NCBI RefSeq assembly: GCF_022846255.1 | Contig: NZ_AP025682.1 | DNA length: 64,000 nt | Source: Escherichia coli | GTDB lineage: Bacteria; Pseudomonadota; Gammaproteobacteria; Enterobacterales; Enterobacteriaceae | Strand: one strand, 5' to 3' | Shown: positions 13,644-51,966 of the stretch, piece by piece | How positions within the stretch are numbered: the first letter of the stretch is position 1 | Layout of the letters: each line of letters opens with the position of its first letter | Translations under genes and position numbers: made by a program | Notes under the pieces: model-generated | What the model saw: the letters and a program-made list of their open reading frames with translations, nothing else | The model's database searches: none | What the model was told of the DNA's origin: nothing

Positions 13644-13794
13644 AACTTTGCCTCAGGCATTAGAAATAGCGCGTTATTGTACACGGATTAATCGCACTAC
13701 AAAACAGGATCACAAACATCCTCCGCAAACAAGTATTGCAGAGTCCCTTTGTGATCGCTTTCACGGAGCATAAAAAGGGTTATCCAAAGGTCAT

Positions 13795-13844
13795 TGCACC
13801 AATATGGTGCTTAATGTTCCCATTGAAGCACTATATTGGTGCAA
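13795..13844 (+). promoter_or_regulatory. NtrC (NRI) enhancer sites upstream of glnA
   Basis: Two dyads TGCACCAATATGGTGCT (13795-13811) and GCACTATATTGGTGCAA (13828-13844) matching NtrC consensus TGCACC-N5-GGTGCA. Confidence 0.7.
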
Positions 13845-18302: not shown

Positions 18303-18456
<154 letters not shown>

Positions 18457-20595: not shown

Positions 20596-20661
20596 AATGG
20601 TTCGTCTTTTAGCCGTTTTATTCAGTATAGATTTGCGGCGGAATCTAACAGAAAGCAAGCA

Positions 20662-20906
20662 AAGAAAAAAGGCGACAGATTACTCTGTCGCCTTTTTTCC
20701 TGACTCATAACCCTTAACGGGTCTTACAATCCTTGCAGGCCGCCAACACACCCTGTTTTTCCATTAGCCGGAACAATCCGTGTTGATTCCATTTCCATTT
20801 AATTACGTCTCCGGACGTTTATCTTCCTGACAATCCTCTGTCTTCGCCTCCTGGCGCTCCTGACCCTCATCCTGAGTCATTGTTCCTGTTAGCGTCCTCG
20901 CTCTAT
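20662..20906 (-). ncRNA. csrC: CsrC small RNA (CsrA-sequestering)
   Basis: Minus-strand sequence begins ATAGAGCGAGGACGCTAACAGGAACAATGACTCAGGATGAGGGTCAGGAGCGCCAGGAGG and contains multiple GGA motifs in predicted loops; ends at intrinsic terminator hairpin GGCGACAGAGTAATCTGTCGCC plus U-run. Confidence 0.8.
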
Positions 20907-21176
20907 GGGTGCTACTTTACGCCTTTGCTTTAAATAAACAATCAACCGCCATCAGTATTTGCACATTTTCAGAGTTTTATATAAAAGCAATTCACTGATT
21001 TATATAGCTTATTTGACATGCGTCGCAGAATTTTCTCTGCTATTTCGCATAAAGACTATCGGCAATGTCTCACAAAGCATATGGCTTTTACTTACAACGC
21101 TCACGCCGAAAAATCCGCCTTTTATTATGGTTCAGGTATAATCGCCGCAAAGCTTTGACTGATGGAGACGACCGCT

Positions 21177-21809
21177 TTGACTAATTTGAATTATCAACAG
21201 ACGCATTTTGTGATGAGTGCGCCTGATATTCGCCACCTACCTTCCGATACCGGAATTGAAGTGGCTTTTGCAGGCCGTTCCAACGCAGGTAAATCCAGCG
21301 CGCTGAACACGCTGACTAACCAGAAAAGCCTGGCTCGTACCTCAAAAACCCCAGGGCGCACCCAGCTTATCAACCTGTTTGAAGTGGCTGACGGCAAGCG
21401 TCTGGTTGACTTGCCTGGATACGGTTATGCGGAAGTCCCGGAAGAGATGAAGCGCAAATGGCAGCGCGCGCTCGGCGAGTACCTCGAAAAACGTCAGAGC
21501 CTGCAAGGTCTGGTGGTGCTAATGGATATTCGCCATCCGCTGAAAGATTTGGATCAGCAGATGATTGAGTGGGCGGTAGACAGCAATATCGCCGTGCTGG
21601 TACTGCTGACCAAAGCGGACAAACTGGCAAGCGGCGCACGTAAAGCGCAATTGAATATGGTGCGTGAAGCGGTGCTGGCGTTTAACGGTGATGTGCAGGT
21701 TGAAACGTTTTCTTCGCTGAAGAAACAAGGCGTGGACAAGCTGCGGCAGAAACTGGATACCTGGTTTAGCGAGATGCAGCCTGTAGAAGAAACGCAGGAC
21801 GGCGAATAA
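21177..21809 (+). CDS. engB: ribosome biogenesis GTP-binding protein EngB/YsxC
   Basis: G-domain GRSNAGKSS; start assigned to TTG 21177 (MTNLNYQQ, 210 aa) as in E. coli annotation; ORF track uses upstream ATG 21162. Confidence 0.88.
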
Positions 21810-21827
21810 TTTTCTTGCCTTAATGCT

Positions 21828-21912
21828 TGTGCCGGATGTGGCGTATCCGGCCCGTAAATTCAATAGATTACAATTCTACCGTTGGCCTGATAAACATGGC
21901 GTATCAGGCATT
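21828..21912. repeat. REP-like palindromic units
   Basis: GCCGGATGTGGCGTATCCGGCC and GGCCTGATAAACATGGCGTATCAGGC. Confidence 0.5.
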
Positions 21913-21934
21913 ACGGATCTTTTCTTTCGCCCAA

Positions 21935-22043
21935 TAAAAAACGCCCCAGTCATTACTGACTGGGGCGGCTAAAATATTCAGCCAAATCCGATTACGTGAA
22001 GTAAAAGGTCTGAAAGATAGAACATCTTACCTCTGTACCCTAC
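21935..22043 (-). ncRNA. spf: Spot 42 small RNA
   Basis: Minus-strand sequence GTAGGGTACAGAGGTAAGATGTTCTATCTTTCAGACCTTTTACTTCACGTAATCGGATTTGGCTGAATATTTTAGCCGCCCCAGTCAGTAATGACTGGGGCGTTTTTTATTGG, immediately downstream of polA; terminal hairpin plus U-run. Confidence 0.8.
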
Positions 22044-22190
22044 GCGACTAACTTTACTCTTTTTTGTTCAGTTCAGAAAGCATTTTTTGTAATTTTTTTT
22101 CAGTTGTTGCATAGGAATTTCTAATAGCCATCACAAAACGTGACAGCTTATGTTGCTTACTTACGAAAAAAGGGCATGTTCAGGCGAATC

Positions 22191-24977
22191 TTAGTGCGCC
22201 TGATCCCAGTTTTCGCCACTCCCCACTTCCACCAGTAACGGCACATCCAGACGGGTACAGTTTTCCATCAGTTGATGAATCTGCTTCGCGACGGCATCGA
22301 CATCATCTTTATGGACTTCAAATACCAGTTCATCGTGTACCTGCATGATCATACGCACACGCGGTTGCTCAGCCTGTAGCCACGCATCAACGGCAATCAT
22401 CGCCCGTTTGATAATGTCGGCGGCGGTTCCCTGCATTGGCGCGTTAATGGCTGCACGTTCAGCCGCTGCACGACGAGCACCATTGCTGGATTTGATATCC
22501 GGCAGATACAGACGGCGTCCGTCCAGCGTTTCAACGTAGCCCTGCTCTTTCGCCTGAGCACGGGTGCGTTCCATATACTCCAGCACGCCAGGGTAGCGTT
22601 CGAAGTAAAGGTCCATGTACTTCTGCGCTTCTTTACGTGGAATGTTCAATTGCCGCGCCAGACCGAAAGCACTCATGCCATAAATCAGACCAAAGTTGAT
22701 CGCTTTTGCACTACGACGTTGCTCGCTGGTGACGGTTTCCAGTGGCAAACCAAACACTTCTGCCGCCGTTGCACGGTGGATATCTTTTCCTTCCGCGAAT
22801 GCGGTCAGCAAGCCTTTGTCACGCGAGAGATGCGCCATAATGCGCAGTTCAATCTGCGAGTAGTCCGCTGAGACAATCACATAATCCTCTGGCGCAATAA
22901 ACGCCTGGCGGATACGGCGACCTTCTTCGTTACGCACCGGAATGTTTTGCAGGTTAGGATCGGTTGACGATAAACGTCCCGTTGCGGTTACTGCCTGGTG
23001 ATAAGAGGTATGTACACGCCCGGTTTTCGGGTTGATCATCAACGGCAGCTTGTCGGTGTAGGTCGATTTCAGCTTCGCCAGACCACGATACTCCAGAATC
23101 ACTTTTGGCAACGGATAGTCCAGCGCCAGTTCTTCCAGTACCTCTTCCGACGTTGACGGCGCGCCACCCGGAGTTTTCTTCAGCGGTTTAATGCCCTGTT
23201 TTTCAAACAGAATGGTTTGTAACTGCTTGGTGGAAGAAAGGTTAAATTCTTCACCTGCAATTTCATGCGCTTTCTTTTCCAGCTCAGCCAGACGCAAGGT
23301 GAGCTCTTCAGAGTGATTGTGCAGCACTTTCGGATCGATCTTCACACCGTTACGTTCAATGCGTGAAAGCACCGGCACCAGCGGCATTTCGATATTCTCG
23401 AAGACGTTCAACGGCCCTTTGTGTTTTTGCAGATCCGGCCACATTTTCAGATGCAACTGCAAGGTGACATCTGCATCTTCGGCGGCGTAACGCCCGGCTT
23501 CTTCGAGGGCAATCTGGTTAAAGGTCAGTTGATTTTTGCCTTTACCCGCAATCTCTTCAAAAGTGATGGTTTTGTGCTTCAACCAACGTTCCGCGAGGCT
23601 GTCCATATCGTGACGCCCGGCAACGCTATTGAGAATGTAGGACTCCAGCATGGTATCAAACGCAATCCCACGTAGTTCAATGCCGTAGTTCGCCAGAATA
23701 CCGCGATCGTATTTCAGGTTTTGCCCGACCTTCAGCGCCTTTTCATCTTCCAGCAGCGGTTTTAGCAACTCGAGTGCACGCTCGCGAGAGATTTGATCGG
23801 GCGCATCAAGATAATCATGAGCAACCGGAATATATGCCGCTACGCCTGGCTCGATAGCAAAAGAAAGCCCGACCAGGTTAGCAGAGATGTTATCAAGGCT
23901 GTCAGTTTCGGTATCAAATGCAAATACCGGCGCTTTTTCCAGCTTCGCAATCCACTCTTTCAGTGTTTCTTCATCAAGGATGGTGACGTAGTTGTCATAA
24001 GAAATCACCGTTGCCGTCACTTCTGGCGCTTCGTCTGCAACACTGGTTTCCTGCGGCCTGGCTGCGGGTTTCGCCCCTTTAGCCTGTAGCCATTTTCCCG
24101 CTTCGACATCAGCAGTCCAGCGTTTGAACTCATACTTTTTGAACAGCCCTAACAACTCTTCCGCCGCCGGTGGCTGCACTTCCAGTTGTTCACAGGTCAG
24201 CTCCAGTTCAACGTCGGTTTTAATCGTCGCCAGCTGGTATGAGAGATAAGCAACTTCTTTGTTTTGCTCGAGCTTCGCTGCCATTGTTTTCGCGCCACGG
24301 AAGCTCAACCCAGCAATTTTTTCTGGCTCGGCATACAGCGTATCCAGCCCGCCAAGACCTTGCAGCAATGCCTGCGCGGTTTTTTCACCGACGCCCGGTA
24401 CGCCAGGAATGTTATCAGAGGAGTCACCCATCAGCGCCAGGAAATCGATGATCAGTTCTGGCGGCACGCCGTACTTATTCACCACCTCTTCCGGTCCGAG
24501 GATGGTATTCGTCATGGTGTTGATAAGCGTGATATTTGGTGTCACCAGCTGCGCCATATCTTTATCGCCAGTGCTGATCAGCACCGGACGCCCGGCTTTT
24601 TCGGCTTCGCGCGCCAGAGTACCAATAACGTCGTCCGCTTCTACGCCAGAAACCGCCAGCAGCGGCAGTCCCATCGCTTTAACCATCGCGTGCAGAGGTT
24701 CGATTTGTGCTCGCAGATCGTCCGGCATTGGCGGGCGATGTGATTTGTAATGTTCAAACAGTTCATCACGAAAGGTTTTTCCCTTGGCGTCAAAGACCAC
24801 CGCTGCATGCGTCGGTTTATATTGCATGATCAGACTGCGCAGCATGTTGAGGACACCATACATCGCACCGGTCGGCTCGCCTGCGCTGTTAGTCAGCGGG
24901 GGAAACGCGTGATATGCGCGATAAAGGTAAGATGAACCATCTACAAGGATAAGTGGATTTTGGGGGATCTGAACCAT
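22191..24977 (-). CDS. polA: DNA polymerase I
   Basis: 928 aa; 5'-3' exonuclease, 3'-5' exonuclease and polymerase domains; [25 protein letters not shown]... Confidence 0.97.
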
Positions 24978-31139: not shown

Positions 31140-31259
31140 ATGCCTGGCAGTTCCCTACTCTCGCATGGGGAGGCCCCACACTACCATCGGCGCTACGGCG
31201 TTTCACTTCTGAGTTCGGCATGGGGTCAGGTGGGACCACCGCGCTACGGCCGCCAGGCA
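31140..31259 (-). rRNA. rrfA: 5S ribosomal RNA
   Basis: 120 nt reverse complement of TGCCTGGCGGCCGTAGCGCGGTGGTCCCACCTGACCCCATGCCGAACTCAG...AGTAGGGAACTGCCAGGCAT. Confidence 0.95.
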
Positions 31260-31357
31260 AATTCTGTTTTATCAACACGTCTCGTTATGACCTGTCGATT
31301 TAATCTGTATCAGGCTGAAAATCTTCTCTCTATCCGCCAAAACATCTTCGGCGTTGT

Positions 31358-34262
<2,905 letters not shown>

Positions 34263-34445
34263 TCACAACCCGAAGATGTTTCTTGCGATTCATCATCGTG
34301 TTGCGAAAATTTGAGAGACTCACGAACAACTTTCGTTGTTCAGTGTTTCAATTTTCAGCTTGATCCAGATTTTTAAAGAGCAAAACTTCGCAGTGAACCT
34401 TTGCAGGTACACTCTGAAGTATTTTTTATTTAATCACTACAGAGA

Positions 34446-34521
34446 TGGTGGAGCTATGCGGGATCGAACCGCAGACCTCCTGCGTGCAAAGCAGGCGCTC
34501 TCCCAGCTGAGCTATAGCCCC
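34446..34521 (-). tRNA. alaT: tRNA-Ala (anticodon UGC)
   Basis: Reverse complement GGGGCTATAGCTCAGCTGGGAGAGCGCCTGCTTTGCACGCAGGAGGTCTGCGGTTCGATCCCGCATAGCTCCACCA. Confidence 0.95.
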
Positions 34522-34563
34522 ATAACATGTAGTTAAAACCTCTTCAAATTTGCGGTGCAAATT

Positions 34564-34640
<77 letters not shown>

Positions 34641-34708
34641 GTAGAGGTTTTACTGCTCATTTTCATCAGACAATCTGTGTGAGCACTGCAAAGTACGCTT
34701 CTTTAAGG

Positions 34709-36250
<1,542 letters not shown>

Positions 36251-49723: not shown

Positions 49724-51966
<2,243 letters not shown>

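What the first reader, a model, noticed from the sequence alone, without database searches (positions are those of the whole stretch)
21935..22043. Spot 42 sRNA (spf) immediately downstream of polA
A 109 nt minus-strand RNA gene with a terminator hairpin, matching the Spot 42 sequence that I recall from K-12. It accounts for the conserved sequence between polA and engB.
Basis: partly seen in the sequence, partly recalled or inferred. Interest (0 to 1): 0.25.

Follow-up and report, generated by a model that had tools for sequence, protein, structure and literature searches.

The report
Spot 42 small RNA gene (spf)
This is the ordinary, fully intact E. coli gene for Spot 42, a long-known small regulatory RNA that helps cells prefer glucose and also encodes the 15-residue protein SpfP; nothing about this copy is unusual.

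Summary
The finding is correct. Window 21935-22043 (minus strand) is the spf gene for Spot 42 RNA.

- **Family match:** it hits Rfam RF00021 at 122.8 bits, against a gathering score of 80.
- **Identity:** it is 111/111 identical to the annotated spf (b3864) of E. coli K-12 MG1655.
- **Position:** it sits between polA and yihA/engB, as in K-12.
- **Distribution:** it is single-copy and at least 99% identical in 5424 of 5426 complete E. coli genomes.
- **Structure:** it folds into three stem-loops ending in an intrinsic terminator. Covariation in 110 sequences from other species supports this fold.
- **Target pairing:** its three published seed regions pair with the galT-galK junction.
- **Promoter:** the published CRP operator sequence lies upstream, at 22117-22138.

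The RNA is dual-function: the 15-codon spfP ORF (22025-21978, MFYLSDLLLHVIGFG) is intact.

The cross-genus conservation block coincides with +1..+109 of the RNA. The promoter is moderately conserved, and the REP-bearing 3' flank is not conserved.

Verdict: already known, ordinary, low interest.

The parts
21935..22043 (-). spf gene: 109-nt Spot 42 RNA (RefSeq K-12 annotates 111 nt, i.e. 21933-22043)
   Evidence: Rfam RF00021 at 122.8 bits against GA 80. 111/111 identical to b3864. At least 99% identical in 5424/5426 E. coli genomes.
21978..22025 (-). spfP ORF: 15 codons plus stop, MFYLSDLLLHVIGFG*; AUG at RNA nt 19-21, His10 present
   Evidence: Identical to K-12 spfP b4837. Translation and function were shown in K-12 by PMC8916003.
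22030..22033 (-). GAGG Shine-Dalgarno-like sequence for spfP (RNA nt 11-14), buried in stem-loop 1
   Evidence: Read directly from the sequence. Predicted P(unpaired) is 0.01-0.02 at 30-45 C. [quoted passage not shown]
22036..22043 (-). Seed region I (RNA nt 1-8, GUAGGGUA)
   Evidence: 8 consecutive pairs (1 G-U) with galK mRNA +48..+55. Function shown by compensatory mutations in PMC8577784.
22008..22017 (-). Seed region II (RNA nt 27-36, UCUUUCAGAC)
   Evidence: 10 perfect Watson-Crick pairs with galK +4..+13, starting at the 2nd nt after the AUG. This matches the description in PMC8577784.
21983..21991 (-). Seed region III (RNA nt 53-61, UCGGAUUUG) in the single-stranded linker; holds the GGA (nt 55-57, window 21987-21989) that I take to be the CsrA site
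   Evidence: 9 consecutive pairs (2 G-U) with gal mRNA -19..-11, overlapping the galK SD (PMC8577784). Predicted P(unpaired) 0.79. PMC12612679 reports CsrA binding to a single GGA within the SpfP coding sequence; nt 55-57 is the only GGA I see there.
21997..22043 (-). Stem-loop 1 (RNA nt 1-47)
   Evidence: MFE and centroid fold. Pairs are kept in 98.7-100% of cells across 110 distinct sequences, varying only by G-C/G-U or U-A/U-G changes on one side.
21967..21983 (-). Stem-loop 2 (RNA nt 61-77)
   Evidence: fold. 90.6% of cells paired, and one pair shows G-C to A-U double changes in 9 sequences.
21935..21966 (-). Stem-loop 3: Rho-independent terminator (RNA nt 78-101) plus U-tract
   Evidence: Terminator scan. 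9 of 10 pairs carry compensatory double changes across species.
22051..22056 (-). Probable -10 hexamer TAAAGT (-13..-8)
   Evidence: Sequence reading only. The strict sigma-70 consensus scan found no promoter, so this is an inference anchored on the known +1.
22083..22100 (-). A-tracts at -57..-50 and -45..-40 (UP-element-like); position 22083 (-40) is A here and G in K-12
   Evidence: Sequence and alignment to K-12. The -60..-41 region is 0.87-0.91 conserved across genera. The UP-element reading is my inference.
22117..22138 (-). cAMP-CRP operator TTTTGTGATGGCTATTAGAAAT (-95..-74)
   Evidence: Exact and unique match in the window, 0 expected by chance, to the E. coli spf CRP site quoted in PMC3295665. 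Mean cross-genus identity 0.80.
21810..21934 (.). Poorly conserved 3' flank with two REP-like palindromes (21831-21851, 21885-21909); not part of the RNA
   Evidence: Inverted repeat GCCTGATA/TATCAGGC and sequence reading. Cross-genus identity 0.31. An IS200C insertion occupies this flank in E. coli 32-4.

Best explanation
This is the spf gene of an E. coli chromosome. It is transcribed on the minus strand from its own promoter, starting at G22043 and ending at the intrinsic terminator near 21935. The product is the 109-nt Spot 42 RNA.

When glucose is plentiful and cAMP is low, cAMP-CRP no longer represses the promoter through the operator at 22117-22138, and the RNA accumulates. With Hfq, it pairs through three seed regions (nt 1-8, 27-36, 53-61) with mRNAs for the uptake and catabolism of non-preferred carbon sources. 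The classic target is the galT-galK junction, where pairing blocks galK translation and triggers Rho termination and RNase E cleavage.

The same transcript is an mRNA for the 15-aa SpfP. SpfP binds CRP and blocks activation of certain CRP-dependent promoters, which reinforces the same feed-forward loop.

Shown here: identity, position, structure, covariation, seed complementarity, an intact ORF, and presence of the operator sequence. Taken from published K-12 experiments and transferred by sequence identity: expression, Hfq and CsrA binding, CRP repression, target regulation and SpfP function.
For: - **Family match:** Rfam RF00021 at 122.8 bits against GA 80.
- **Identity:** 111/111 to K-12 spf, and spfP is identical.
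- **Neighbours:** polA (NF004397, 1253 bits) and yihA/YsxC (TIGR03598, 252 bits) flank it in the K-12 arrangement.
- **Distribution within E. coli:** single copy, at least 99% identical in 5424/5426 complete genomes.
- **Fold:** three stem-loops, MFE -40.6 kcal/mol, z = -5.08.
- **Covariation:** on 110 distinct sequences, 97.7% of cells are paired against 38-50% when partners are slid. 10 pairs show double-sided changes against 3-5, and 0/500 shuffles reach any of the observed measures. RNAalifold recovers the terminator independently.
- **Synteny in other species:** polA lies upstream on the same strand in 98 of 118 loci and yihA lies downstream, convergent, in 101; both are seen in 88.
- **Seeds:** regions I, II and III pair with the K-12 galT-galK junction exactly as described in PMC8577784.
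- **Operator:** the published CRP site is present exactly once.
- **RNA-level constraint:** the conservation block coincides with +1..+109. Third-codon positions of the adjacent polA average 0.53 identity, while spf stays at 0.97-1.00, synonymous sites of spfP included.
- **Published function:** PMC8916003, PMC8577784 and PMC12612679.
Against: There is no substantive evidence against.

- The simple sigma-70 scan found no consensus promoter upstream. The promoter is therefore inferred from the known +1, a TAAAGT -10 hexamer and A-tracts.
- Thermodynamic folding predicts seed I to be mostly paired, with P(unpaired) about 0.3. The literature calls it single-stranded.
- The CRP operator is centred near -84.5, an unusual position for a repressor. 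I could not read the original footprinting paper.
- No expression data exist for this particular strain.
Confidence: 0.98

Rival explanations
1. The locus is essentially a tiny protein-coding gene (spfP mRNA), and the RNA-level regulatory role is secondary or absent.
For: The 15-codon ORF is intact, has a GAGG SD and keeps His10. The 15-aa ORF with His10 is kept in 100 of 118 loci across Enterobacterales, Vibrionales and Aeromonadales. SpfP is translated and active in K-12 (PMC8916003).
Against: - All synonymous positions of the ORF are invariant across 20 other Enterobacteriaceae genomes, while polA third positions are 53% identical. That implies constraint on the RNA itself.
- The invariant block begins at +1, 18 nt before the AUG, and the structure downstream of the ORF covaries.
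- Shewanella-type homologues pass the Rfam threshold but lose the ORF after codon 7-8.
- A stop-codon mutant of Spot 42 still causes the galactose growth defect (PMC8916003).
- Compensatory seed/target mutations restore regulation (PMC8577784).
Confidence: 0.01
2. The conserved hairpin region is only a cis-acting terminator/3' UTR element of polA (or of convergent yihA), not an independent gene.
For: No other intrinsic-terminator-like site lies between the polA stop (22191) and the spf terminator. polA read-through transcripts could therefore end there. The polA-spf linkage is conserved in 98 of 118 loci.
Against: - Conservation rises sharply to 1.00 exactly at the annotated +1, not at the polA stop.
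- An operator and a conserved promoter region precede it.
- Aeromonas keeps spf without polA upstream.
- The annotated K-12 gene (b3864) begins at this G, and PMC8577784 places a guanine and the sequence GUA at the RNA's 5' end. From memory, not checked here: the RNA was sequenced directly with a triphosphate 5' G (Sahagan and Dahlberg 1979).
- On the + strand the hairpin is not followed by a U-run, so it is not a canonical terminator for yihA.
Confidence: 0.01
3. A chance or degenerate (pseudogene) match to the Spot 42 model.
For: None. Weak sub-threshold hits to other families (PyrR, VrrA, NsiR1, ncS54, 17-25 bits) show that the terminator hairpin alone attracts spurious matches.
Against: E = 3.6e-24, full-length model match (1-115), 100% identity to the type gene, correct synteny.
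Confidence: 0

Closest known systems
Spot 42 RNA / spf (b3864) with embedded spfP (b4837) of E. coli K-12 MG1655; Rfam RF00021
   Same: RNA sequence is identical over 111/111 nt and the SpfP ORF is identical. Same neighbours (polA upstream, yihA convergent, csrC beyond), same CRP operator, same terminator.
   Different: Differences lie only outside the RNA. There is one extra C in the 5' part of the spacer, about 131 bp upstream of +1. Position -40 (22083) is A here and G in K-12. Two substitutions fall in a REP-like palindrome of the 3' flank. The window's 61-bp promoter segment is found exactly in 1487 of 5417 genomes.
Spot 42 homologues of Vibrionaceae, Aeromonas and Shewanella (e.g. Aliivibrio salmonicida spf, PMC3295665)
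   Same: The first 37 nt are essentially invariant. They share the three-part architecture and terminator, mostly the polA-spf-yihA synteny, and all score above Rfam GA.
   Different: SL2 loop and terminator sequences differ, with compensatory changes. SpfP variants are LLFHVIGLG (Vibrio) and LLFHVIECG (Aeromonas). The ORF degenerates in Shewanella-like taxa. Aeromonas lacks polA upstream.
Other dual-function sRNAs of carbon metabolism (SgrS/SgrT, AzuCR, VcdRP)
   Same: One transcript acts both as an Hfq-type base-pairing regulator and as the mRNA of a small protein working in the same pathway (PMC8916003, PMC8915982, PMC12612679).
   Different: The sequences and targets are unrelated. In Spot 42 the ORF overlaps two of the three seed regions, and the protein targets the transcription factor CRP.

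Membership tests
Spot 42 RNA (Rfam RF00021, spf) | Covariance-model score at or above the curated gathering score (80 bits), full-length match | tested here: met
   122.8 bits, model positions 1-115/115, E = 3.6e-24, minus strand
Spot 42 RNA (Rfam RF00021, spf) | Sequence correspondence to the type gene (E. coli K-12 b3864) | tested here: met
   111/111 identical to the ncRNA feature annotated in NC_000913.3
Spot 42 RNA (Rfam RF00021, spf) | Genomic context: downstream of polA on the same strand, convergent with yihA/engB | tested here: met
   polA 22191-24977 (-) and yihA 21162-21809 (+), confirmed by NCBIfam equivalog models. Both neighbours are seen in 88/118 loci of other species.
Spot 42 RNA (Rfam RF00021, spf) | Three stem-loops, the last a Rho-independent terminator with a U-tail | tested here: met
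   MFE fold, z = -5.08; terminator scan; covariation on 110 distinct sequences
Spot 42 RNA (Rfam RF00021, spf) | Three seed regions complementary to the galK translation-initiation region | tested here: met
   nt 1-8, 27-36 and 53-61 pair with K-12 gal mRNA +48..+55, +4..+13 and -19..-11, as described in PMC8577784. By the count of runs alone, 9/1000 shuffles reach the observed number.
Spot 42 RNA (Rfam RF00021, spf) | Promoter repressed by cAMP-CRP | tested here: inconclusive
   The published operator sequence is present exactly at 22117-22138. The regulation itself cannot be tested in silico, and the original footprint paper could not be read.
Spot 42 RNA (Rfam RF00021, spf) | Binds Hfq (and CsrA) and is expressed as a roughly 109-nt transcript | not testable with these tools
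   Transferred from K-12 experiments by 100% sequence identity (PMC8916003; PMC12612679)
Dual-function sRNA encoding SpfP | Intact 15-codon ORF MFYLSDLLLHVIGFG with AUG at nt 19 and the critical His10 | tested here: met
   22025..21978 translates identically to b4837. His10 is reported as critical in PMC8916003.
Dual-function sRNA encoding SpfP | ORF is translated and the peptide binds CRP | not testable with these tools
   Shown for the identical K-12 sequence in PMC8916003
Other Rfam families overlapping the site (PyrR RF00515, VrrA RF01456, NsiR1 RF02399, ncS54 RF02871) | Score at or above the family's gathering score | tested here: not met
   17-24.6 bits against GA 39-54. The PyrR alignment, the only one of these printed, rests mainly on the terminator hairpin.

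The most novel reading that the evidence does not exclude
The conserved polA-spf linkage may reflect functional coupling rather than history. No other intrinsic terminator lies between the polA stop and the spf terminator. A fraction of polA mRNAs may therefore read through and carry the whole Spot 42/SpfP sequence as a 3' UTR. This would link DNA polymerase I expression to Spot 42, and could be relevant to the old, unexplained report that Spot 42 levels affect Pol I activity, cited in PMC3295665. A lesser variant concerns the -40 A/G polymorphism in the UP-like A-tract, where the window carries the allele found in about 27% of genomes. It might tune Spot 42 levels between E. coli lineages.
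Probability: 0.12. Interest if true: 0.3.

Novelty: already known. Interest (0 to 1): 0.05.

Why it matters
For genome annotation it matters only in a housekeeping sense. Two things follow from this check.

- **Current annotation is incomplete.** Most of the RefSeq E. coli records listed leave this stretch unannotated. A few annotate only the RNA or only spfP. The K-12 reference record carries both. An annotator should record both the ncRNA and the 15-codon CDS here.
- **The first-stage reader performed well.** It recalled a 109-nt RNA to the exact base from sequence alone.

Biologically, Spot 42 is a central, well-studied node of catabolite repression, and this copy adds nothing new to that.

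Tried and rejected
- **Sigma-70 consensus scan of 21700-22300.** No promoter passed, so the promoter call rests on the known +1 and remains an inference.
- **CRP core-consensus scan (TGTGA-N6-TCACA, up to 3 mismatches).** It gave 178 matches against 221 expected. The motif score is therefore uninformative. Only the exact match to the published operator counts.
- **Seed search restricted to Watson-Crick pairs.** It found only region II. Regions I and III appeared once G-U pairs were allowed.
- **RNAalifold on the 5' hairpin.** It drew this hairpin differently from the single-sequence MFE. That region is invariant, so covariation cannot discriminate. I tested the E. coli MFE structure explicitly instead.
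- **Folding at 30-45 C.** AUG accessibility rose only modestly (0.24 to 0.37) and the SD did not open. This agrees with sequestration but is weak support for a thermometer mechanism.
- **Papers I could not read.** Polayes et al. 1988 (PMC211256) and Beisel and Storz 2011 (PMC3072601) are not held.
- **First trimming heuristic.** Cutting each homologue at the first T-run gave spurious short lengths. I replaced it with fixed 120-nt stretches.
- **Excluded from the alignment.** L031 (Muribaculaceae MAG) was dropped as a chance 20-mer hit: no synteny and no Rfam hit.
- **A failed tool call.** The 15-aa peptide is too short for the protein-family tool.

Full report
**Observation.** The stretch 21935-22043, read on the minus strand, is 5'-GUAGGGUACAGAGGUAAGAUGUUCUAUCUUUCAGACCUUUUACUUCACGUAAUCGGAUUUGGCUGAAUAUUUUAGCCGCCCCAGUCAGUAAUGACUGGGGCGUUUUUUA-3', 109 nt. 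It ends in an 11-bp G+C-rich hairpin (21967..21942) followed by a U-run. That hairpin is the only terminator-like site in 21700-22300. As RNA it folds into three stem-loops at -40.6 kcal/mol. This is 5.1 standard deviations below 200 dinucleotide shuffles, none of which fold as well.

A scan of the whole window against Rfam 15 gives Spot_42 (RF00021) at 21935-22053 on the minus strand. The score is 122.8 bits against a gathering score of 80, E = 3.6e-24, and the match covers model positions 1-115 of 115. The 10 extra 5' nucleotides are flanking positions of the Rfam model. Other families overlapping the site (PyrR, VrrA, NsiR1, ncS54) score 17-25 bits, far below their thresholds. In the PyrR alignment, the only one of these printed, the match rests mainly on the terminator hairpin.

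**Identity and context.**
- The 381-bp polA-yihA spacer occurs in 5424 of 5426 complete E. coli genomes and is 100% identical in strain FDAARGOS_536.
- In K-12 MG1655 the homologous stretch is annotated as ncRNA spf (b3864, 'small regulatory RNA Spot 42', 111 nt), with an internal CDS spfP (b4837, 'dual-function small protein SpfP').
- The window is 111/111 identical to that spf. It contains the identical ORF at 22025..21978, MFYLSDLLLHVIGFG*.
- The 109-nt RNA alone is single-copy and at least 99% identical in 5424/5426 genomes.
- The upstream ORF 22191-24977 (-) is DNA polymerase I (NF004397, 1253 bits). The convergent ORF 21162-21809 (+) is YihA/YsxC, also called EngB (TIGR03598, 252 bits).
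- The RNA starts 148 bp downstream of the end of the polA ORF (147 bp lie between), and 125 bp separate its 3' end from the end of yihA.

**Independent comparative evidence.** These span Enterobacterales, Vibrionales, Aeromonadales and Alteromonadales.
- *Synteny.* polA lies upstream on the same strand in 98 of 118 usable loci, and yihA lies downstream and convergent in 101. Both are seen in 88. The exceptions are mostly contig ends or Aeromonas, which lacks polA upstream.
- *Sequence conservation.* In an alignment of the window plus 110 distinct sequences, nt 2-15 and 17 are invariant and nt 16 nearly so. These positions lie outside the search anchor.
- *Structure.* Projecting the E. coli MFE structure onto the alignment gives 97.7% of cells as standard pairs, against 38-50% when partners are slid by 1-3 columns. 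Ten pairs show changes on both sides, against 3-5 when slid. The covariation score is 0.142 against at most 0.034, and 0/500 shuffles reach any of the observed measures.
- *Where the signal lies.* It comes chiefly from the terminator, where 9 of 10 pairs have compensatory changes. RNAalifold recovers this helix on its own. SL2 has one covarying pair. SL1 is nearly invariant and changes only by wobble-compatible substitutions on one side.
- *Rfam threshold.* Distant forms from Vibrio, Aliivibrio, Aeromonas, Shewanella and Parashewanella all pass the Rfam gathering score, at 80.9-124.2 bits.

**Does it account for the conserved sequence?** Across 20 other Enterobacteriaceae genomes, mean identity to the window is as follows:

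| Region | Position | Identity |
|---|---|---|
| Spacer next to the polA stop | -147..-96 | 0.61 |
| CRP operator | -95..-74 | 0.80 |
| Between operator and -35 | -73..-36 | 0.80 |
| Core promoter | -35..-1 | 0.72 |
| SL1 and single-stranded linker | +1..+60 | 1.00 |
| SL2 | +61..+77 | 0.99 |
| Terminator and U-tract | +78..+109 | 0.97 |
| 3' flank | +110..+234 | 0.31 |

The conserved block is therefore the RNA plus, more weakly, its promoter. The 3' flank carries two REP-like palindromes (21831-21851 and 21885-21909) and is not conserved.

**Mechanism.** Because the RNA is identical to the K-12 molecule, published experiments transfer directly.
[quoted passage not shown] The RNA is abundant in glucose, binds Hfq and represses mRNAs for non-preferred carbon sources (PMC8916003).
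- *Operator.* The E. coli operator quoted in PMC3295665 (TTTTGTGATGGCTATTAGAAAT) occurs exactly once in the window, at 22117-22138 on the minus strand. That is -95..-74 relative to +1.
- *Seed regions.* I tested complementarity against the K-12 galT-galK junction. Nt 27-36 form 10 perfect pairs with galK +4..+13. Nt 1-8 form 8 pairs with +48..+55. Nt 53-61 form 9 pairs with -19..-11, over the galK SD. This matches regions II, I and III of PMC8577784. There, compensatory mutations showed that region II pairing leads to Rho-dependent termination and region I pairing to RNase E cleavage.
- *CsrA.* A review reports that CsrA binds a single GGA within the SpfP coding sequence (PMC12612679). I place this at nt 55-57, window 21987-21989.

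The transcript also encodes SpfP. [quoted passage not shown] Here the ORF, His10 and a GAGG SD (nt 11-14) are all intact. The SD and AUG lie inside SL1. Predicted unpaired probability is 0.01-0.02 for the SD, and rises from 0.24 to 0.37 for the AUG between 30 and 45 C. This agrees with the paper's suggestion of sequestration but is only weak support for thermal opening.

**RNA-level or protein-level constraint?** Third-codon positions in the last 600 nt of polA average 0.53 identity across the 20 genomes. The spf transcript, synonymous sites of spfP included, stays at 0.97-1.00. The constraint therefore acts on the RNA as well as on any peptide. A 15-aa ORF with His10 is kept in 100 of 118 loci (Enterobacterales, Vibrionales, Aeromonadales). 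It degenerates after codon 7-8 in Shewanella, Parashewanella and Bowmanella. The main text of PMC8916003 does not discuss phylogenetic conservation, so this is a small addition rather than a discovery.

**Caveats.**
- No sigma-70 consensus promoter was found by the simple scan. A TAAAGT at -13..-8 and A-tracts at -57..-40 are my reading.
- The operator centre near -84.5 is an unusual position for repression. I could not read the original footprinting paper or Beisel and Storz 2011.
- Thermodynamic folding pairs seed I (P unpaired about 0.3), whereas the literature treats it as accessible.
- None of these caveats bears on the identification.

**Verdict.** Both the observation and the interpretation are correct. 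The feature is the well-known spf gene, intact and ordinary. Novelty: already known. Interest: very low.

Noticed in passing
window 21978-22025 (-): The embedded 15-codon spfP ORF (MFYLSDLLLHVIGFG) is intact. The K-12 reference annotates it as b4837.
   Followed up: yes
window 22083 (-40 of spf); also about -131 and the REP at 21885-21909: The window differs from K-12 only outside the RNA. Position -40 is A here and G in K-12, inside an A-tract that looks like an UP element. The exact 61-bp promoter segment occurs in 1487 of 5417 E. coli genomes, and most others differ by one base. Any effect on expression is unknown.
   Followed up: partly
window 22044-22190: No intrinsic-terminator-like site lies between the polA stop and the spf terminator. 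polA read-through transcripts may therefore end at the spf terminator. This is an inference only.
   Followed up: no
L126 (E. coli 32-4) 3255-4092; homologous to window about 21810-21934: An IS200C transposase gene is inserted between the spf terminator and yihA in this strain, in the REP-bearing flank.
   Followed up: partly
Loci L007, L021, L036, L040, L047, L052, L058, L065, L072, L085, L103, L112, L114, L115: In Shewanella, Parashewanella and Bowmanella the Spot 42 5' region is conserved, but the SpfP reading frame diverges after codon 7-8, lacks His10 and varies in length. L058 (Bowmanella) is a short form without SL2 and falls below the Rfam threshold.
   Followed up: partly
Aeromonas loci L017, L033, L046, L049, L056, L073, L087: spf is present and yihA is convergent downstream in most of these, but polA is not found upstream. 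The polA linkage is therefore not universal.
   Followed up: no
L031 (MAG: Muribaculaceae) 993-1112: An exact 20-mer match with no polA/yihA synteny and no Rfam Spot_42 hit. It is most likely a chance match, or contamination limited to a short stretch.
   Followed up: partly
window 20653-20906 (-); L002/L003/L126: CsrC sRNA (RF00084, 276.7 bits) lies about 1 kb from spf, beyond yihA. In several RefSeq (PGAP) records a 'frameshifted hypothetical protein' pseudogene is drawn about 300 bp beyond yihA, in the yihA-yihI spacer. That is where K-12 annotates csrC, so it is probably an annotation artefact.
   Followed up: no
E. coli RefSeq records: Most complete E. coli genomes listed carry no annotation at all over spf. 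Some annotate only spfP and some only 'spot 42 RNA'. Two matches are on records labelled as plasmids, and two genomes have no match.
   Followed up: no
window 31142-36250 (-), 13725-13832 (-), 18328-18399 (-), 34270-34378 (-), 51361-51612 (-): Other Rfam hits in the window are as follows. A complete rRNA operon (16S, two tRNAs, 23S, 5S), which I take from memory of the K-12 map to be rrnA; StyR-44 sits in its spacer upstream of 23S. Also ES222, naRNA4 (which I recall is REP-derived) and Erse.
   Followed up: no
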